A stretch of 8,645 nucleotides of DNA from a virus (taxonomy: Duplodnaviria > Heunggongvirae > Uroviricota > Caudoviricetes), in the IMG/VR virus record IMGVR_UViG_2548876856_000015; one strand, written 5' to 3'. Shown here in pieces: positions 1 through 8,645 of the stretch (position 1 is the stretch's first letter; every line of letters begins with the position of its first letter). Position numbers and translations under genes: made by a program. The notes below the pieces were generated by a model, which made no database searches, had not been told where the DNA came from, and worked only from the letters and a program-made list of their open reading frames with translations.

Positions 1-471
1 CTAGCAGTCAAACTCAACAACTAATTCTTCGGTAATATCGCTTAGGGAAACAATGCCTTTATATCCAGTCTCAACATACGGGACAACCCTCTCGCCCCAT
101 GCTTTTTCTTCTTTCCAAGAAGTCCATGGAATCAGTTTCTCGAACTTGCTTTCGTGAAGAAACAGTATTGAAATCTTATCACCTTGTTCGCGTTTAAGGA
201 TCTGAGTTGGAAAACATTTATAAGCATGCTCTTTCCAGAATCTAGTCCCATAGCATCTATAGTCGAAAAAAGACACGCAATTGCGCTGCCTAAAAAAACC
301 ATTAGATGTATTTCCAAATCTTGAAAATTGCAATAATTCCGAATTTGGAACCAAAGCTCCAGATTGTTTTATAAGGAGCATATTAGCTGCAGTAGTAACA
401 TGAAACACTTTTCCTGAAAGTGCAGATAAAATATCGTCGTTATACGTGATTTTGAGTTGATTGATTATCAT
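1..471 (-). CDS. Hypothetical accessory protein (AT-rich cargo ORF next to the int 3' end)
   Basis: ORF track 1..483 minus, 160 aa. The first codon at 483 is TTG; the first ATG is at 471..469 (MIINQ...). Stop codon occupies window positions 1-3. Visibly more AT-rich than the neighbouring int. No clear Shine-Dalgarno. No family recognised with confidence. Confidence 0.45.
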   Translation of the reverse strand: MIINQLKITYNDDILSALSGKVFHVTTAANMLLIKQSGALVPNSELLQFSRFGNTSNGFFRQRNCVSFFDYRCYGTRFWKEHAYKCFPTQILKREQGDKISILFLHESKFEKLIPWTSWKEEKAWGERVVPYVETGYKGIVSLSDITEELVVEFDC

Positions 472-571
472 ATTTTTTATCAAGTAACTATTGGCCTGTT
501 GCTGTTCATTAGCATAGCATGATGACTGCTATTGGCTGTGAGTTCAAGGTGGCGTTGGGACTCTTAAATAC

Positions 572-3744: not shown

Positions 3745-4437
3745 TTAATTATGTCTCTTAAGGGTTTGCGACTGACTGATTAAGACCTTTCCAAAGACCA
3801 TGAATCGGTGTTCGTTTTCGCTAGTAATTCCCCATTCACGGTAAATCTGGTTATCAGAAATCACCAGCAGTTTGTCAGGAATCATTTGAAGTCTTTTAAC
3901 GTATATTTTGTCATCAAAACCAAAGACATATATACCATCACCATCAAACTGATTGATGCTGACATCAACGAAGATGAGATCTCCTGGCTCAATGGTTGGA
4001 CACATACTGTCCCCACGAACGTTGATAACTTTGATGTGATTGGCTGGTCGTCCGCCGAACATTGATACAGCATTATCAGTTCTGTATTCGATGGCATGAA
4101 TCACATCAATGACATCACCGCCTTGGATAAGGCCATTTCCCGCACTGGCACTGATATCCAGCATTTCAATACGGAACACATCCTTCACCTGCGCAACATC
4201 CTCATTATTACTGTTTTTATATACAGTATTACTTTTGTGGGCAGAGGTAAAGAGATCAGCAATATCAACACCTAAGCTCTTGGCAATATTACTCAGTGTT
4301 TGTTCGGTAAATTGTTTTTGCTTACCCGTTTCTAAGCGCGAGATGTTCGCCGCATCTACTCCTATTGCTTCAGCGAGATCGGCGATTTTCATGTTCTTCG
4401 CTTGGCGAAGTTGTCTGACTCGGTTTCCTATGTTCAT
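3745..4437 (-). CDS. cI: cI-like prophage repressor (N-terminal HTH + C-terminal S24 LexA-like autopeptidase domain)
   Basis: 230 aa. N-terminal HTH_XRE-type segment VRQLRQAKNMKIADLAEAIGVDAANISRLETGK. C-terminal GDSMCPTIEPGDLIFVD (Ser nucleophile) and YVKRL (Lys) match the S24 family. Divergent from the cro-like gene. Confidence 0.9.
   Translation of the reverse strand: MNIGNRVRQLRQAKNMKIADLAEAIGVDAANISRLETGKQKQFTEQTLSNIAKSLGVDIADLFTSAHKSNTVYKNSNNEDVAQVKDVFRIEMLDISASAGNGLIQGGDVIDVIHAIEYRTDNAVSMFGGRPANHIKVINVRGDSMCPTIEPGDLIFVDVSINQFDGDGIYVFGFDDKIYVKRLQMIPDKLLVISDNQIYREWGITSENEHRFMVFGKVLISQSQTLKRHN
4209..4228. promoter_or_regulatory. LexA (SOS) box-like palindrome inside the cI coding sequence
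   Basis: TACTGTTTTTATATACAGTA matches CTGT-N8-ACAG with an AT-rich spacer and TA flanks; about 18 of 20 positions agree with the E. coli consensus TACTGTATATATATACAGTA (from memory). Only CTGT-N8-ACAG match found in a manual scan of the window. Confidence 0.4.
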
Positions 4438-4795: not shown

Positions 4796-5339
4796 GCATC
4801 ACTGGAAAGTAGAAAAACAGCCTGAGTGGTACGTGAAAGCTGTCAGAAAAACTATCGCAGCGTTGCCGGGGGGTTACGCTGAAGCTGCTGACTGGCTGGA
4901 TGTAACAGAGAACGCATTATTTAACCGCCTTCGTGCCGATGGCGATCAGATTTTCCCGCTGGGATGGGCAATGATTTTGCAACGTGCTGGTGGAACTCAC
5001 TTCATTGCTGACGCTGTGGCGCAGTCTGCAAATGGCGTCTTTGTGTCTCTTCCTGATGTCGAGGATGTGGACAACGCCGATATCAACCAACGCCTGCTGG
5101 AGGTCATTGAACAGATCGGCAGTTATTCAAAACAGATTCGTTCAGCAATTGAAGACGGTGTAGTGGAACCGCATGAGAAGACAGCAATTAACGACGAGCT
5201 GTACCTCTCAATTTCGAAGCTGCAGGAGCATGCAGCACTGGTCTACAAAATTTTTTGCATTTCAGAAAGTAATGACGCCCGCGAGTGTGCAGCTCCGGGC
5301 GCCGTGGCGTGTCGTGACTGTGGAGAAACTAACGCATGA
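4788..5339 (+). CDS. CII-like phage regulatory protein (function tentative)
   Basis: 183 aa. GTG start at 4788 with AGGAGG at 4776-4781. Sits in the lambda cII position after cro. The sequence recalls the longer 'phage regulatory protein CII' family; this is from memory, not verified. Stop overlaps the next ATG (ATGA at 5336-5339). Confidence 0.5.
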
Positions 5340-5694: not shown

Positions 5695-6625
5695 ATTAAC
5701 CGGCTATGTATGGGATGGTTGCGCAGCGTCAGGCATGAAATTATCCAGCGTGGCAATTATGGCACGCCTGGCTGATTTCAGTAATGACGAAGGTGTGTGC
5801 TGGCCATCAATTGAAACCATTGCCCGCCAGATTGGCGCGGGGATGAGTACCGTCAGAACGGCTATCGCACGGCTGGAAGCAGAAGGCTGGTTAACGCGTA
5901 AGGCGCGTCGCCAGGGTAACCGCAATGCGTCGAATGTTTATCAGCTTAACGTTGCGAAGCTTCAGGCTGCGGCTTTTTCTCAACTGTCAGATTCTGACCC
6001 GTCAAAATCTGACGCATCAAAATCTGACCCGTCAAAATTTGATGCGTCGAAATCTGGCAAAAAAGCGGGTTTTCACCCGTCAGAATCTGGCGGGGATCCG
6101 TCAGTAAAATCAAAACATGATCCGTCAGATAAAAAAACTTCTCGTCCGGACGCTTCGCAACCGGACACGCAGACGGCTGAACAGGATTTTTTAACTCGCC
6201 ATCCTGATGCGGTTGTATTCAGCCCTAAAAAGCGCCAGTGGGGGACGCAGGATGATTTGACCTGCGCACAGTGGCTCTGGAAAAAAATCATCGCCCTGTA
6301 CGAGCAGGCTGCCGAATGTGACGGCGAGGTGGTTCGTCCCAAAGAACCGAACTGGACAGCCTGGGCAAACGAAATTCGCCTGATGTGTGTGCAGGATGGT
6401 CGTACTCACAAACAAATCTGCGAGATGTACAGCCGCGTCAGCCGCGATCCGTTCTGGTGCCGTAACGTGCTCAGCCCGTCGAAGCTGCGGGAAAAATGGG
6501 ATGAGCTTTCCCTGCGCTTATCGCCGTCCGTAAGCACGTACACCGAAAAACGCGAAGACCCGTACTTCAAATCCAGTTACGACAATGTGGACTACAGCCA
6601 GATCCCGGCAGGATTCAGGGGGTGA
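5684..6625 (+). CDS. Replication initiator protein (lambda O-like; N-terminal winged-helix/HTH domain; ori iterons inside the gene)
   Basis: 313 aa. N-terminal HTH segment SVAIMARLADFSNDEGVCWPSIETIARQIGAGMSTVRTAIARLEAEGWL. Internal 5-aa periodic low-complexity region encoded by tandem 15-bp DNA repeats. Position after the cII-like gene. SD GAGG at 5675-5678. Confidence 0.7.
   Translation: MSTKLTGYVWDGCAASGMKLSSVAIMARLADFSNDEGVCWPSIETIARQIGAGMSTVRTAIARLEAEGWLTRKARRQGNRNASNVYQLNVAKLQAAAFSQLSDSDPSKSDASKSDPSKFDASKSGKKAGFHPSESGGDPSVKSKHDPSDKKTSRPDASQPDTQTAEQDFLTRHPDAVVFSPKKRQWGTQDDLTCAQWLWKKIIALYEQAAECDGEVVRPKEPNWTAWANEIRLMCVQDGRTHKQICEMYSRVSRDPFWCRNVLSPSKLREKWDELSLRLSPSVSTYTEKREDPYFKSSYDNVDYSQIPAGFRG
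5987..6061. repeat. Five tandem 15-bp direct repeats (candidate ori iterons), followed by a CCGTCAG repeat family and an A-rich tract to about 6136
   Basis: Repeats: TCAGATTCTGACCCG, TCAAAATCTGACGCA, TCAAAATCTGACCCG, TCAAAATTTGATGCG, TCGAAATCTGGCAAA. CCGTCAG recurs at 6077, 6098 and 6122. GATAAAAAAAC at about 6128-6138. Confidence 0.6.
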
Positions 6626-6627
6626 TC

Positions 6628-7116
6628 ATGAGTCTGTTAAATGACGTTCAGAAATTCATTGAAGCCCATCCGGGGTGTACTTCCGGAGACATTGCGGATG
6701 CTTTTGCTGGTTACTCACGGCAGCGCGTTCTGCAGTCAGCAAGCAAGTTACGTCAGAGTGGACGTGTGGCTCACCGTTGTGAAGGAGATACACGCAGACA
6801 TTTCCCGCGCCTGACTGAGAGAGCGCAGGAGCCGAAACCACAACCAGTTCGTGAAACCAGACCTGTGCGTAATTTCTATGTCGGCACTAACGATCCCCGG
6901 GTGATTTTGTGCCTGACCCGCCAGGCGGAAGAACTGGAGTCCAGGGGCTTATACCGTCGTGCTGCAACCGTGTGGATGGCGGCATTCCGTGAAAGCCACT
7001 CCCAGCCAGAACGAAACAATTTTCTGGCGCGTCGTGAGCGGTGCTTACGGAAAAGCAGCAAGCGCGCTGCATCGGGTGAAGAGTGGTATCTGTCAGGGAA
7101 TTACGTGGGGGCTTAA
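6628..7116 (+). CDS. Hypothetical regulatory protein with a PerC-like C-terminal motif (tentative)
   Basis: ATG at 6628 preceded by AGGGGG (6616-6621); the ORF track starts at GTG 6622. The segment AEELESRGLYRRAATVWMAAF resembles the PerC-family motif as I recall it. The N-terminal ~60 aa look like a small winged-helix domain. Stop TAA overlaps the next start (TAATG at 7114-7118). Confidence 0.4.
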   Translation: MSLLNDVQKFIEAHPGCTSGDIADAFAGYSRQRVLQSASKLRQSGRVAHRCEGDTRRHFPRLTERAQEPKPQPVRETRPVRNFYVGTNDPRVILCLTRQAEELESRGLYRRAATVWMAAFRESHSQPERNNFLARRERCLRKSSKRAASGEEWYLSGNYVGA

Positions 7117-7442
7117 TGACGACGTTAACTCAATGCCAGCAGCAGGTGCTGGATATGCTGATTTCTTATCAGAAAGAACGTGGCTTCCCACCAACCAATC
7201 AGGAGGTGGCAACCATGCTGGGATACCGTTCGGTGAATGCAGCGGTGGAGCATCTTCGTGCTCTGGAGAAAAAAGGCGTCATCACGATAAAGCGTGGCGT
7301 GGCCCGGGGGATAACGCTTCATACCGCGGTGAAGGACGACGACAGCGAGGCGGTCGGGATTATCCGCTCACTGCTTGCCGGTGAGGAAAACGCCAGGCTG
7401 CGTGCAGCCCACTGGTTACATGAGAGGGGCCTGAAAGTATGA
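7116..7442 (+). CDS. LexA N-terminal DNA-binding-domain-like protein (no S24 peptidase domain)
   Basis: 108 aa from ATG 7116 (ORF track starts at 7083). LTQCQQQVLDMLISYQKERGFPPTNQEVATMLGYRSVNAAVEHLRALEKKGVITIKRGVARGITL aligns by eye with E. coli LexA residues ~1-70 ([65 protein letters not shown]). The C-terminus is short and has no Ser/Lys peptidase motifs. Confidence 0.65.
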   Translation: MTTLTQCQQQVLDMLISYQKERGFPPTNQEVATMLGYRSVNAAVEHLRALEKKGVITIKRGVARGITLHTAVKDDDSEAVGIIRSLLAGEENARLRAAHWLHERGLKV

Positions 7443-7828
7443 AGCTTATTCTGCCTTTTCCGCCCAGCGTGAACACGTACTGGCGACACCCCAACAAAGG
7501 GGCGTTTGCTGGTAAGAGCCTGATAAGCACGGCGGGGCGAAAATTCCAGAGCGCGGCGTGCGCAGCAATAGTTGAGCAGTTACGTCGTCTGCCGAAACCA
7601 ACGTCGGCACCTGCTGCAGTGGAGATCGTGTTGTTTCCACCGGATAACCGGATCCGCGATCTGGACAACTATAACAAGGCGCTGTTTGACGCCCTGACCC
7701 ACGCGGGTGTGTGGGAAGACGACAGTCAGGTGAAAAGAATGCTGGTGGAGTGGGGACCGGTTATCCCGGAAGGGAAGGTCGAGATCACTATCAGTAAGTA
7801 CGAGAAAACGGCGGGTGCAGCCGCCTGA
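7439..7828 (+). CDS. rusA: RusA Holliday-junction resolvase
   Basis: 129 aa. LPFPPSVNTYWRH..., DLDNYNKALFDALTHAGVWEDDSQV match the RusA hallmarks (LPWPPS.N.Y.RH; DLDN..KA.FDALT.AG.W.DD.QV). ATGA overlap with the upstream gene. Confidence 0.9.
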   Translation: MKLILPFPPSVNTYWRHPNKGAFAGKSLISTAGRKFQSAACAAIVEQLRRLPKPTSAPAAVEIVLFPPDNRIRDLDNYNKALFDALTHAGVWEDDSQVKRMLVEWGPVIPEGKVEITISKYEKTAGAAA

Positions 7829-7847
7829 TTAAGAGGAGAAACGAAGT

Positions 7848-8645
7848 ATGAATAATCTGATGGTCATTGATGGTATTGAAGTTCGTCGTGATGCTTATGG
7901 TCGTTACAGCCTGAACGATCTGCACAGGGCTGCCGGTTCTCTGGATAAGCATAAGCCTGCATTCTGGCTCCGCAATGAGCAAACTGAACGTTTAATAAGC
8001 GAGTTGCAGATTTGCAACTCGGTCAATATAGAGCCAGTTAACGTTATTCGTGGCGGAAATAACCAGGGGACGTATGTCTGCAAAGAACTGGTGTATGCCT
8101 ATGCAATGTGGATCAGCCCGTCATTCCATCTGAAGGTGATCCGTACTTTCGATATGGTAACCAGCGCACCGGAAAAATTATCCGGGCAGGCTGCTGACAA
8201 GATGCAGGCAGGTGTGATTCTGCTGGACTTTATGCGCAGGGAGTTAAACCTGTCTAACTCTTCAGTGCTTGGTGCCTGTCAGAAGCTTCAGGAGGCTGTT
8301 GGCTTACCGAATCTGGCACCGCGCTATGCCATTGATGCTCCTGCTGATGCACTCGATGGCTCAAGCCGCCCTACGCTATCATTGAGTGCACTGCTGAAGC
8401 AGTATGGTATCCGCCTTACGGCTAATCAGGCATATCACCAGATGGTGAAGCTGGGGATCGTCGAACAGCGCGAACGATACAGCCGTACCGCGATTAACAA
8501 CATCAAAAAATTCTGGTCGCTGACAGCGAAAGGCTGCATGTTCGGCAAGAACATCACCAGTCCCGCAAATCCGCGCGAGACGCAGCCGCACTTTTTCGAA
8601 TCCCGATTCCCTGAGCTGTTAAAGCTGCTCGATACCGTTCATTGA
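7848..8645 (+). CDS. KilA-N domain protein (antirepressor-like)
   Basis: 265 aa. N-terminal region MVIDGIEVRRDAYGRYSLNDLHRAAG...KPAFWLRNEQTERLISEL...CKELVYAYAMWISPSFHLKVIRTFD is typical of the KilA-N domain. GAGGAG at 7833-7838, 9 nt before the ATG. Stop at the window end. Confidence 0.7.
   Translation: MNNLMVIDGIEVRRDAYGRYSLNDLHRAAGSLDKHKPAFWLRNEQTERLISELQICNSVNIEPVNVIRGGNNQGTYVCKELVYAYAMWISPSFHLKVIRTFDMVTSAPEKLSGQAADKMQAGVILLDFMRRELNLSNSSVLGACQKLQEAVGLPNLAPRYAIDAPADALDGSSRPTLSLSALLKQYGIRLTANQAYHQMVKLGIVEQRERYSRTAINNIKKFWSLTAKGCMFGKNITSPANPRETQPHFFESRFPELLKLLDTVH

What the first reader, a model, noticed from the sequence alone, without database searches (positions are those of the whole stretch)
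7116..7442. Phage-encoded LexA DNA-binding domain without the autopeptidase domain
The product aligns by eye along its first ~70 residues with the N-terminal DNA-binding domain of E. coli LexA, but it ends after about 108 aa with no S24 Ser/Lys catalytic module. Such a protein could bind SOS boxes without being cleavable by RecA*. That would let it act as an uncleavable SOS-box binder, or as a dominant modulator of host LexA sites, including the LexA-like box inside cI at 4209-4228. It is translationally coupled within the replication/nin operon, so it would be made on induction.
Basis: partly seen in the sequence, partly recalled or inferred. Interest (0 to 1): 0.6.

Follow-up and report, generated by a model that had tools for sequence, protein, structure and literature searches.

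The report
Phage LexA DNA-binding domain without protease
A prophage gene encodes a small protein that keeps the DNA-binding head of the bacterial SOS repressor LexA but lacks its self-cleaving half. It belongs to a common, already catalogued family whose function has not been tested, and it might let the phage override the host's DNA-damage response.

Summary
ORF 7116-7442 (+) encodes 108 aa. Residues 1-68 are a true LexA-type winged helix: Pfam PF01726 matches end to end (E 3e-19), identity to E. coli LexA is 43-51%, and the model fits solved LexA at 1.3-1.5 A rmsd. There is no S24 peptidase domain. The gene is translationally coupled to its neighbours (TAATG upstream, ATGA into rusA).

It is not new as an object. 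It is PHROG 362, which NCBI names 'LexA family transcriptional regulator'. It occurs in SfII, SfIV, SfV, mEp460 and Stx2a/2c phages and in 2233 of 5426 complete E. coli genomes. I found no functional study. The only characterised analogue is GIL01 gp6, a truncated LexA that activates a late promoter.

- A conserved C-terminal two-helix hairpin, probably a dimerisation module.
- The family never keeps the LexA contact residue Glu44.
- rusA lies directly downstream almost invariably, across clades only 44% identical.

The cI-internal box is real and identical to the umuDC operator. However, phage SOS boxes and this gene occur independently of each other. SOS-box binding is therefore plausible but unproven (about 0.4). 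A shifted, gp6-like specificity is about as likely.

The parts
7116..7442 (+). Coding sequence of the 108-aa LexA-DNA-binding-domain protein (stop included)
   Evidence: ORF and sequence. PF01726 E 2.9e-19. PHROG 362 end to end, E 1.4e-59. 100% identical copies are annotated 'LexA family transcriptional regulator' in E. coli chromosomes.
7116..7319 (+). Residues 1-68: LexA-type winged helix-turn-helix (helices 6-22, 28-35, 40-52; strands 56-58 and 66-68)
   Evidence: AlphaFold model. Foldseek best hits are 1lea/3jso at 1.3-1.5 A rmsd and 51% identity. BLASTP against LexA.
7233..7271 (+). Residues 40-52: recognition helix VNAAVEHLRALEK. S39 lies just upstream. S39, N41, A42 and E45 are as in LexA; LexA E44 is Val here.
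   Evidence: Alignments. Contact residues as listed in PMC3091678. Family-wide loss of E44.
7320..7337 (+). Residues 69-74: low-confidence acidic linker (HTAVKD)
   Evidence: pLDDT below 50 at residues 71-74. This is the only segment where close homologues differ by insertions or deletions.
7338..7421 (+). Residues 75-102: conserved two-helix hairpin (helices 75-87 and 93-102), proposed to be a dimerisation or partner-binding module. Its first half aligns with the LexA hinge and cleavage-site segment (LLAGEE against VAAGEP).
   Evidence: pLDDT 85-87. L86, L87, E90, A93, R96, A97 and L101 are invariant among close relatives. The pattern is kept in clades 39-49% identical. BLASTP and TIGR00498 alignments run to residues 90-91.
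7107..7118 (+). G-run (GGGGG, 7107-7111) 4 nt before the ATG, and the TAATG overlap of the upstream stop with the start codon
   Evidence: Read directly from the sequence.
7439..7828 (+). rusA (Holliday-junction resolvase). Its ATG overlaps the stop of the LexA-like gene (ATGA). It is the constant downstream partner of the family.
   Evidence: PF05866 E 1.2e-14. rusA lies directly downstream in 77/79 and 77/77 related loci of two clades, and also in L164 and L166.
6622..7116 (+). Upstream gene of the same operon: winged-helix plus PerC/ANR-like protein (yfdN-like). In SfII and many relatives a dam methylase gene sits between it and the LexA-like gene.
   Evidence: PF06069 E 7.8e-9 and NF033650. 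SfII and SfIV annotation. The 'yfdN' label in RefSeq.
4209..4228 (.). SOS box TACTGTTTTTATATACAGTA inside the cI coding sequence. It is a candidate target only. It is certainly a host-LexA-type operator.
   Evidence: The only exact CTGT-N8-ACAG in the window. Its reverse complement is identical to the MG1655 umuDC operator. PWM 26.8 bits, the only hit of 10 bits or more. Kept at the same place in cI alleles 70-73% identical.

Best explanation
The gene encodes a LexA-derived DNA-binding regulator that RecA* cannot inactivate. It is made as a delayed-early protein from the rightward (pR-type) operon and is co-translated with RusA.

Shown:
- It has a true LexA winged helix.
- It lacks the S24 autopeptidase and the LexA dimerisation domain.
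- It carries instead a conserved C-terminal two-helix hairpin.
- It sits in an uninterrupted operon that prophage induction or infection would switch on.

Inferred:
- The hairpin pairs two subunits, so the protein reads a palindrome.
- Four of the five LexA base-contact residues and the wing are kept, so the half-site is CTGT-like. The protein can therefore occupy at least some LexA operators, both host SOS boxes and phage-borne ones such as 4209-4228.
- This would happen during lytic growth, when host LexA has been cleaved. Those promoters would then be uncoupled from the SOS signal, as with a dominant lexA(Ind-) allele delivered by the phage.
For: - Domain and fold identity with LexA.
- No S24 domain.
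- S39, N41, A42, E45 and the R64-G65-I66 wing are kept. S39, R64, G65 and I66 are invariant and N41 nearly so across clades down to 39% identity.
- The tail is conserved over the same evolutionary depth and is the most confidently modelled part. It has an L/I...LL and A-x3-A-x3-L pattern typical of helix packing.
- Operon position and coupling.
- Relatives of this phage carry strong, selectively maintained SOS boxes. There are 47 sites of 21 bits or more in 40 of 80 loci, against 0 in shuffles. These lie inside cI, at the start of a methylase gene, and upstream of a KilA-N gene. LexA-type operators therefore matter to these phages.
Against: - LexA contact residue Glu44 is Val here. It is never Glu in any clade that has the tail (A/F/T/Y/V). 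It is Glu in 12 of 30 LexA-sized hits and in the four enterobacterial-type LexA fragments aligned.
- The recognition helix drifts even among close relatives: A42S/T, H46Q/N, and NTIAGH in a 65%-identical member.
- The gene and phage SOS boxes are separable. 40/80 and 73/80 loci carrying the gene have no strong box nearby.
- 7 of 57 loci with the cI box lack the gene.
- 26 of 29 divergent loci with the methylase box lack it.
- The dimer geometry cannot be that of LexA, so the N8 spacing is not guaranteed.
- GIL01 gp6 shows that a truncated LexA of similar identity to its host LexA binds a different palindrome.
- There is no binding data, and dimerisation could not be modelled.
Confidence: 0.4

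Rival explanations
1. Specificity-shifted regulator of the gp6 type. The LexA fold has been re-used to read a phage- or clade-specific palindrome that is not the SOS box. The protein would repress or activate a phage (or host) promoter on a delayed-early schedule and have no direct effect on the SOS regulon.
For: - The precedent is GIL01 gp6. It is 44% identical to its host LexA DNA-binding domain, binds GaCACAnnTGTGaC and activates the late promoter P3 (PMC6182141).
- Glu44 is lost family-wide, and helix 3 differs between clades that all live in lambdoid phages (SVNAAVEH, SPNAAAEH, SANGAFEH, SQNTVFIH, SPNAAATV).
- The LexA-like protein has diverged to 44% identity while the adjacent RusA is still 74% identical. 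That is the pattern of a specificity determinant.
- Most loci have no SOS box nearby.
Against: - No alternative conserved palindrome was found within 4-5 kb of the gene in 54 loci. CTGT arms at other spacings gave nothing either.
- In lambdoid phages late transcription is driven by Q, so no obvious promoter needs such a factor.
- Four of five LexA contact residues are unchanged in the window's clade.
Confidence: 0.35
2. DNA-binding accessory of RusA. The small protein is made in fixed ratio with the resolvase and binds it, or its DNA substrate, through the helical hairpin. It would target or restrain junction cleavage rather than regulate transcription.
For: - rusA is directly downstream with overlapping start and stop in 77/79 and 77/77 loci of two clades, and in two further clades (L164, L166). 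The upstream gene varies: PerC-like, Dam, MT-A70 or C5 methylase.
- The tail has no assigned function.
Against: - Gene adjacency and coupling are common in phage operons without physical interaction.
- rusA occurs without the gene (L357, L359, L365, L373). In E. coli K-12 DLP12 (from my own knowledge) rusA also has no such neighbour.
- SfIV keeps an intact LexA-like gene next to a rusA carrying a premature TGA.
- RusA acts alone in vitro (established knowledge).
- No interaction could be modelled here.
Confidence: 0.12
3. Decaying remnant of a captured lexA gene with no function.
For: It looks like LexA cut just after the cleavage-site segment. Alignment to LexA runs to residue 90, including A88-G89-E90.
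Against: - Architecture and length are conserved across clades 39-49% identical.
- Thousands of intact copies exist, in 41% of complete E. coli genomes.
- The tail is conserved with invariant residues.
- The gene is translationally coupled inside an operon.
Confidence: 0.02

Closest known systems
E. coli LexA N-terminal domain (residues 1-84, the fragment left after RecA*-stimulated cleavage) and non-cleavable lexA(Ind-) alleles
   Same: Same winged-helix fold at 1.3-1.5 A rmsd and 43-51% identity. S39, N41, A42, E45 and the RGI wing are kept. Sequence similarity runs through the hinge to the position of the A84-G85 cleavage site. Functionally it would resemble an Ind- repressor because it cannot self-cleave.
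   Different: No S24 catalytic or dimerisation domain. A 2-helix hairpin follows the hinge instead. Glu44 is Val. It is phage-encoded and expressed only from the lytic operon. Binding to CTGT-N8-ACAG is untested.
GIL01 gp6 (Bacillus thuringiensis tectivirus), a truncated LexA homologue that activates late promoter P3 (PMC6182141)
   Same: A phage-encoded early protein that consists essentially of a LexA DNA-binding domain with no protease domain. Its identity to the host LexA domain is similar (44%).
   Different: No detectable direct sequence relation. tblastn at E 1e-5 against 50,697 phage records finds only enterobacterial phages, so the derivation is independent. The window's protein has an extra conserved C-terminal hairpin. 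It sits in a lambdoid nin region next to rusA. Its target and its sign of regulation are unknown.
PHROG 362 / NCBI 'LexA family transcriptional regulator' of lambdoid phages (SfV orf42, SfII_44, SfIV gp43, mEp460 'LexA DNA binding domain protein', pham 237 of Stx phages)
   Same: The same protein at 96-100% identity, with the same length and the same position upstream of rusA.
   Different: Nothing differs; the window's gene is a member. These records carry only homology-based names, some of them wrong ('SOS-response repressor and protease LexA', 'RecA-mediated autopeptidases'). I found no functional study.

Membership tests
Pfam PF01726 LexA_DNA_bind (LexA-type winged helix) | Full-length match above the gathering score | tested here: met
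   69 bits against 23.7; residues 1-65 on model 1-65/65; E 2.9e-19.
Pfam PF01726 LexA_DNA_bind (LexA-type winged helix) | Fold superposes on the solved LexA N-terminal domain better than on other winged helices | tested here: met
   1lea/3jso at 1.3-1.5 A rmsd and 51% identity. MarR/MepR-type hits fit at 8-13 A rmsd. The model has mean pLDDT 77.
LexA repressor proper (TIGR00498 equivalog) | C-terminal S24 peptidase domain with the Ser119/Lys156 dyad | tested here: not met
   The protein is 108 aa with no PF00717 hit. The model is covered only at positions 1-91 of 203, and rusA starts at the stop codon.
LexA repressor proper (TIGR00498 equivalog) | Whole-protein score at or above the curated cut-off | tested here: not met
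   70.8 bits against a cut-off of 110.95.
LexA repressor proper (TIGR00498 equivalog) | Ala84-Gly85 cleavage site presented to an active site | tested here: inconclusive
   A88-G89-E90 aligns with LexA A84-G85-E86. It lies in the predicted turn of a helical hairpin. It is not kept in distant clades, and no catalytic domain is present in cis.
LexA repressor proper (TIGR00498 equivalog) | Base-contact residues S39, N41, A42, E44, E45 (as listed in PMC3091678) | tested here: inconclusive
   Four of five are kept, with E44 replaced by Val. E44 is absent from all 10 tail-bearing clade representatives.
LexA repressor proper (TIGR00498 equivalog) | Binds CTGT-N8-ACAG operators as a dimer | not testable with these tools
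   This needs EMSA, SPR or ChIP.
PHROG 362 / NCBI 'LexA family transcriptional regulator' of lambdoid phages | End-to-end sequence match including the C-terminal tail | tested here: met
   PHROG 362 matches 1-108 on 1-106/106, E 1.4e-59. There are 96-100% identical proteins under that NCBI name.
PHROG 362 / NCBI 'LexA family transcriptional regulator' of lambdoid phages | nin-region position immediately upstream of rusA | tested here: met
   In the window the stop overlaps the rusA ATG. The same holds in 77/79 and 77/77 related loci.
GIL01 gp6-type truncated phage LexA homologues | Phage-encoded LexA DNA-binding domain without a protease domain, expressed early | tested here: met
   for the window. 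PMC6182141 for gp6.
GIL01 gp6-type truncated phage LexA homologues | Direct sequence relatedness to tectivirus gp6 | tested here: not met
   tblastn of the protein against 50,697 phage records at E 1e-5 returns only Escherichia, Shigella, Klebsiella, Salmonella, Edwardsiella, Hafnia and Proteus records.
GIL01 gp6-type truncated phage LexA homologues | Binds its own palindrome and activates a late promoter | not testable with these tools
   No conserved candidate site was found. Testing needs experiment.

The most novel reading that the evidence does not exclude
The protein is a phage-delivered anti-SOS factor, an uncleavable surrogate for LexA. Once the prophage has used the SOS signal to induce, the surrogate re-occupies LexA operators on the host chromosome, on co-resident prophages and plasmids, and on the phage itself. 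It would shut off recA/lexA/umuDC/sulA, colicin lysis genes and rivals' LexA-gated antirepressors while the phage completes its lytic cycle. Because 41% of complete E. coli genomes and many Stx2a/Stx2c phages carry it, it would be a common, unrecognised modifier of SOS mutagenesis, antibiotic responses and competition between prophages.
Probability: 0.2. Interest if true: 0.7.

Novelty: new member of a known kind. Interest (0 to 1): 0.4.

Why it matters
The SOS response controls mutagenesis, persistence, prophage induction and Shiga-toxin release.

Suppose this very common phage protein binds LexA operators. It would then be a natural, dominant, non-inducible LexA that switches on only in cells where a prophage is already being induced. 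That bears on the timing of the SOS shut-off, on interference between co-resident prophages, and on how Stx phages behave under antibiotics.

Suppose instead that it has its own operator. It would then be a second, independent case after GIL01 gp6 of a phage re-using the LexA DNA-binding fold. It would also define an uncharacterised regulator in the lambdoid nin region.

Either answer is cheap to obtain experimentally. The protein is small, the candidate sites are known, and isogenic phages with and without the gene exist in nature (L101, L141).

Tried and rejected
- Homodimer model. I built 8 self-fused sequences (protein, Gly-Ser linker, protein) to get a pseudo-dimer AlphaFold model. Dimerisation through the tail remains an inference.
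- Operators at other spacings. I looked for a non-canonical operator with CTGT arms at spacings 0-20, compared with 11 permuted half-sites. Only N8 stood out modestly. The frequent N13 and N19 sites are single conserved coding sequences.
- Any shared palindrome. I searched for any 5-nt-arm palindrome present in at least 80% of 54 loci within -4/+5 kb of the gene. Only incidental repeats inside conserved coding sequence turned up. Inverted repeats in 6600-8645 gave nothing convincing.
- Promoter at the cI box. The consensus scan found none at 9/12. By eye, the best candidate is a umuDC-like TTTACC-17-TACTGT arrangement on the cI strand. That is too weak to claim.
- Functional coupling between phage SOS boxes and the gene. 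Co-occurrence was high in near-identical lineages: 50/57 cI loci and 65/68 methylase loci. It vanished in divergent methylase lineages, where 26 of 29 lack the gene. I therefore attribute it to linkage and reject it as evidence.
- A 'CTGTAAGTAACCACAG' site in 19 loci is GC-flanked, scores low and lies in coding sequence, so I dismissed it.
- The LexA-DNA crystal-structure paper could not be retrieved. The contact residues are taken from PMC3091678.
- Rfam: no RNA family in the window.
- Literature searches found no functional work on this protein.

Full report
**What is at 7116-7442**

The ORF runs from ATG 7116 to TGA 7440-7442 and encodes 108 aa. Its ATG shares a base with the stop of the upstream gene (TAATG). 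Its stop overlaps the ATG of the next gene (ATGA). A G-run lies 4 nt before the start.

- Pfam PF01726 (LexA_DNA_bind) matches residues 1-65 to the whole model (69 bits, cut-off 23.7, E 2.9e-19). No peptidase S24 domain is found. The window's own cI scores 68 bits on S24 in the same search.
- NCBIfam's lexA equivalog aligns only its first 91 of 203 positions and scores below its cut-off.
- BLASTP against E. coli LexA gives 43% identity over 90 residues.
- The only solved structures hit by sequence are LexA entries.
- An AlphaFold model (pLDDT 77) superposes on LexA 1lea/3jso at 1.3-1.5 A rmsd with 51% identity. Other winged-helix families fit only at 8-13 A rmsd.

**It is a known, very common family**

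- PHROG 362 ('transcriptional repressor') matches end to end (E 1.4e-59).
- Genes 96-100% identical occur in Shigella phages SfII, SfIV and SfV, in coliphages mEp460, cdtI and Ayreon, and in Stx2a and Stx2c converting phages. Their names range from 'LexA DNA binding domain protein' to the wrong 'SOS-response repressor and protease LexA'.
- NCBI names the protein 'LexA family transcriptional regulator'.
- The gene is present in 2233 of 5426 complete E. coli genomes, with up to four copies.
- From position 2007 onward the window is 97.7% identical to SfII, except that SfII has a dam gene between the PerC-like gene and this one.
- It is identical to prophages in several E. coli chromosomes.
- A survey of Stx phages lists it only as 'pham 237, pfam01726' (PMC8136144).
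- Eight literature searches found no functional study.
- The one characterised analogue is GIL01 gp6. It is a truncated LexA homologue that binds its own palindrome and activates the late promoter P3 (PMC6182141).

**Anatomy beyond the DNA-binding domain**

The model shows the winged helix (residues 1-68), a low-confidence acidic linker (69-74) and a two-helix hairpin (75-87 and 93-102). The hairpin is the most confident part, at pLDDT 85-87.

- The hairpin is conserved among close relatives. L86, L87, E90, A93, R96, A97 and L101 are invariant.
- Its pattern persists in representatives only 39-49% identical that have the same length and architecture.
- Its first half still aligns with the LexA hinge and cleavage-site segment (LLAGEE against VAAGEP). 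The family therefore looks like a lexA gene cut just after the cleavage site and capped with a short helix.
- LexA dimerises through the missing domain. I therefore infer that the hairpin supplies dimerisation or partner binding.

**Recognition helix**

The LexA base-contact residues are S39, N41, A42, E44 and E45 (PMC3091678).

- The phage protein keeps four of them and has Val at position 44.
- Across tail-bearing clades, position 44 is A/F/T/Y/V and never Glu. E45 is kept in 7 of 10. Position 44 is Glu in 12 of 30 LexA-sized hits, and the four enterobacterial-type LexA fragments in the alignment read NAAEEH.
- Even close relatives vary at positions 42 and 46. A 65%-identical member reads NTIAGH.

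This is the main reason to doubt that the target is exactly the host SOS box.

**Context**

From cro (4535) the + strand carries cII, a small ORF, an O-like replication gene with iteron-like repeats, a PerC-like gene, this gene, rusA and a KilA-N gene. These genes abut or overlap. Apart from one weak hairpin at the cro start, the scan found no + strand terminator-like hairpin between them. The protein should therefore be made after induction or infection.

- rusA lies directly downstream in 77 of 79 loci of the window's clade and in 77 of 77 loci of a clade whose LexA-like protein is only 44% identical.
- RusA itself is 74% identical between the two clades.
- Two further clades (L164, L166) show the same order.
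- In all four clades the order is methylase, LexA-like gene, rusA, then a KilA-N/ANT-type gene. The methylases belong to unrelated families: Dam, MT-A70 and C5.

**SOS boxes**

The site 4209-4228 reads TACTGTTTTTATATACAGTA.

- It is the only exact CTGT-N8-ACAG in the window.
- It is identical on the other strand to the umuDC operator of MG1655.
- It lies in the variable linker of cI. It is retained at the same place in cI alleles only 70-73% identical, as a conserved 'TV[YC]xNS' island. It is therefore a selected LexA-type operator.

Related phages carry two more conserved boxes.

- One covers the first codons of a ~350-aa methylase gene and is present in 68/68 and 43/43 loci.
- The other lies ~100 nt upstream of the KilA-N gene in SfIV.

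Strong boxes occur in 40 of 80 loci of the window's clade, against none in shuffles. They occur in only 7 of 80 loci of the second clade.

**Are the gene and the boxes coupled?**

- Co-occurrence is high in samples that are near-identical lineages: 50 of 57 cI loci and 65 of 68 methylase loci.
- In divergent methylase lineages, 26 of 29 box-bearing loci have no LexA-like gene within 10 kb.
- Natural variants keep the cI box and the neighbouring genes but lack the gene (L101, L141).
- Half or more of the gene's carriers have no box nearby.

The two features are thus separable in both directions. The boxes are most simply host-LexA sites.

**Mechanism**

I commit, at about 0.4, to the following. 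The protein is a RecA*-insensitive LexA-type regulator. It dimerises through its tail and occupies CTGT-like palindromes, including at least some LexA operators, once host LexA has been cleaved. In effect the phage would deliver an Ind- LexA.

- A gp6-like shift to a private operator is about as likely (0.35). The loss of Glu44 and the drift of the helix favour it. My failure to find any alternative conserved palindrome counts against it.
- A role as a RusA accessory (0.12) rests only on the synteny. It is weakened by rusA occurring without the gene and by SfIV keeping the gene beside a rusA with a premature stop.
- A dead remnant is excluded by the conservation.

**Verdict**

The gene is a new, uncharacterised member of a known kind: phage-encoded truncated LexA homologues. 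It is already catalogued by homology. Interest is moderate at 0.4. It is ordinary as an annotation, but the gene is abundant and untested, and a cheap experiment would decide between an anti-SOS factor and a re-targeted regulator.

Noticed in passing
window 4209-4228 (inside cI, 3745-4437, minus strand): The SOS box inside cI is 20/20 identical to the E. coli umuDC operator. It sits in the variable linker of the repressor (codons N-T-V-Y-K-N-S). It is kept at the same place in cI alleles only 70-73% identical (L187, L189, L197, L203, L234). This cI allele is in 1040 of 5426 E. coli genomes. What LexA bound inside the repressor gene does is unexplained. It could act as a roadblock, or control an internal or antisense promoter. 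No strong promoter was found.
   Followed up: partly
L021 14999-15018; L166 10259-10278; L018 15072-15091; L255-L376: A conserved SOS box (TACTGTAAAAATAAACAGTG and variants) overlaps codons 3-9 (MKNTVKI[NS]S) of a ~350-aa DNA methyltransferase gene downstream of Q. It is present in 68/68 and 43/43 loci, across methylase alleles down to 78% identity. This suggests a LexA-gated phage methylase.
   Followed up: partly
L001 (SfIV) 5265-5284 and 4824-5190; L068: In SfIV an SOS box (TACTGTATTTATGAACAGTA) lies about 100 nt upstream of a KilA-N gene, with a umuDC-like TTGGGT-16-TACTGT arrangement. It looks like a LexA-controlled antirepressor-type gene. The rusA copy beside it carries a premature TGA (CGA to TGA at codon 33), which explains why it is unannotated.
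   Followed up: partly
window 7116-7828; L002, L164, L166, L175: The gene order methylase, LexA-like gene, rusA, KilA-N/ANT gene is kept in four clades. The methylase slot is filled by unrelated enzymes (Dam, MT-A70, C5 cytosine methylase). The window and SfIV lack the methylase.
   Followed up: partly
window 7377-7385 (residues 88-90, A-G-E): The turn of the C-terminal hairpin carries A88-G89-E90, aligned with the LexA cleavage site A84-G85-E86. The motif is conserved in the window's clade but not in distant clades. Whether an S24 peptidase (host LexA or the phage cI) could cut it in trans is open.
   Followed up: no
window 5993-6056: There are 4.3 tandem copies of a 15-nt unit (TCTGACCCGTCAAAA) inside the O-like replication gene. 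They encode the repetitive DPSKSDASKS stretch and resemble origin iterons embedded in lambda O.
   Followed up: no
window 6622-7116: The upstream gene combines an N-terminal winged-helix region with a C-terminal PerC/ANR-like domain. It is labelled yfdN in some RefSeq genomes. PerC-family proteins are virulence-gene activators in pathogenic E. coli.
   Followed up: no
window 1-483 (minus strand), 2586-2922, 7982-8039: A 160-aa ORF beyond int has no Pfam family. Across 2586-2922, ORFs are open on both strands, with no family or Rfam hit. A 27-nt imperfect inverted repeat (70% complementary) lies inside the KilA-N gene.
   Followed up: no
public records KF030445.1, LR595862.1, AB285204.1 (hits H49, H78, H67): Several GenBank phage records annotate this 108-aa protein as 'SOS-response repressor and protease LexA' or 'RecA-mediated autopeptidases'. 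That cannot be right for a protein without the S24 domain.
   Followed up: yes
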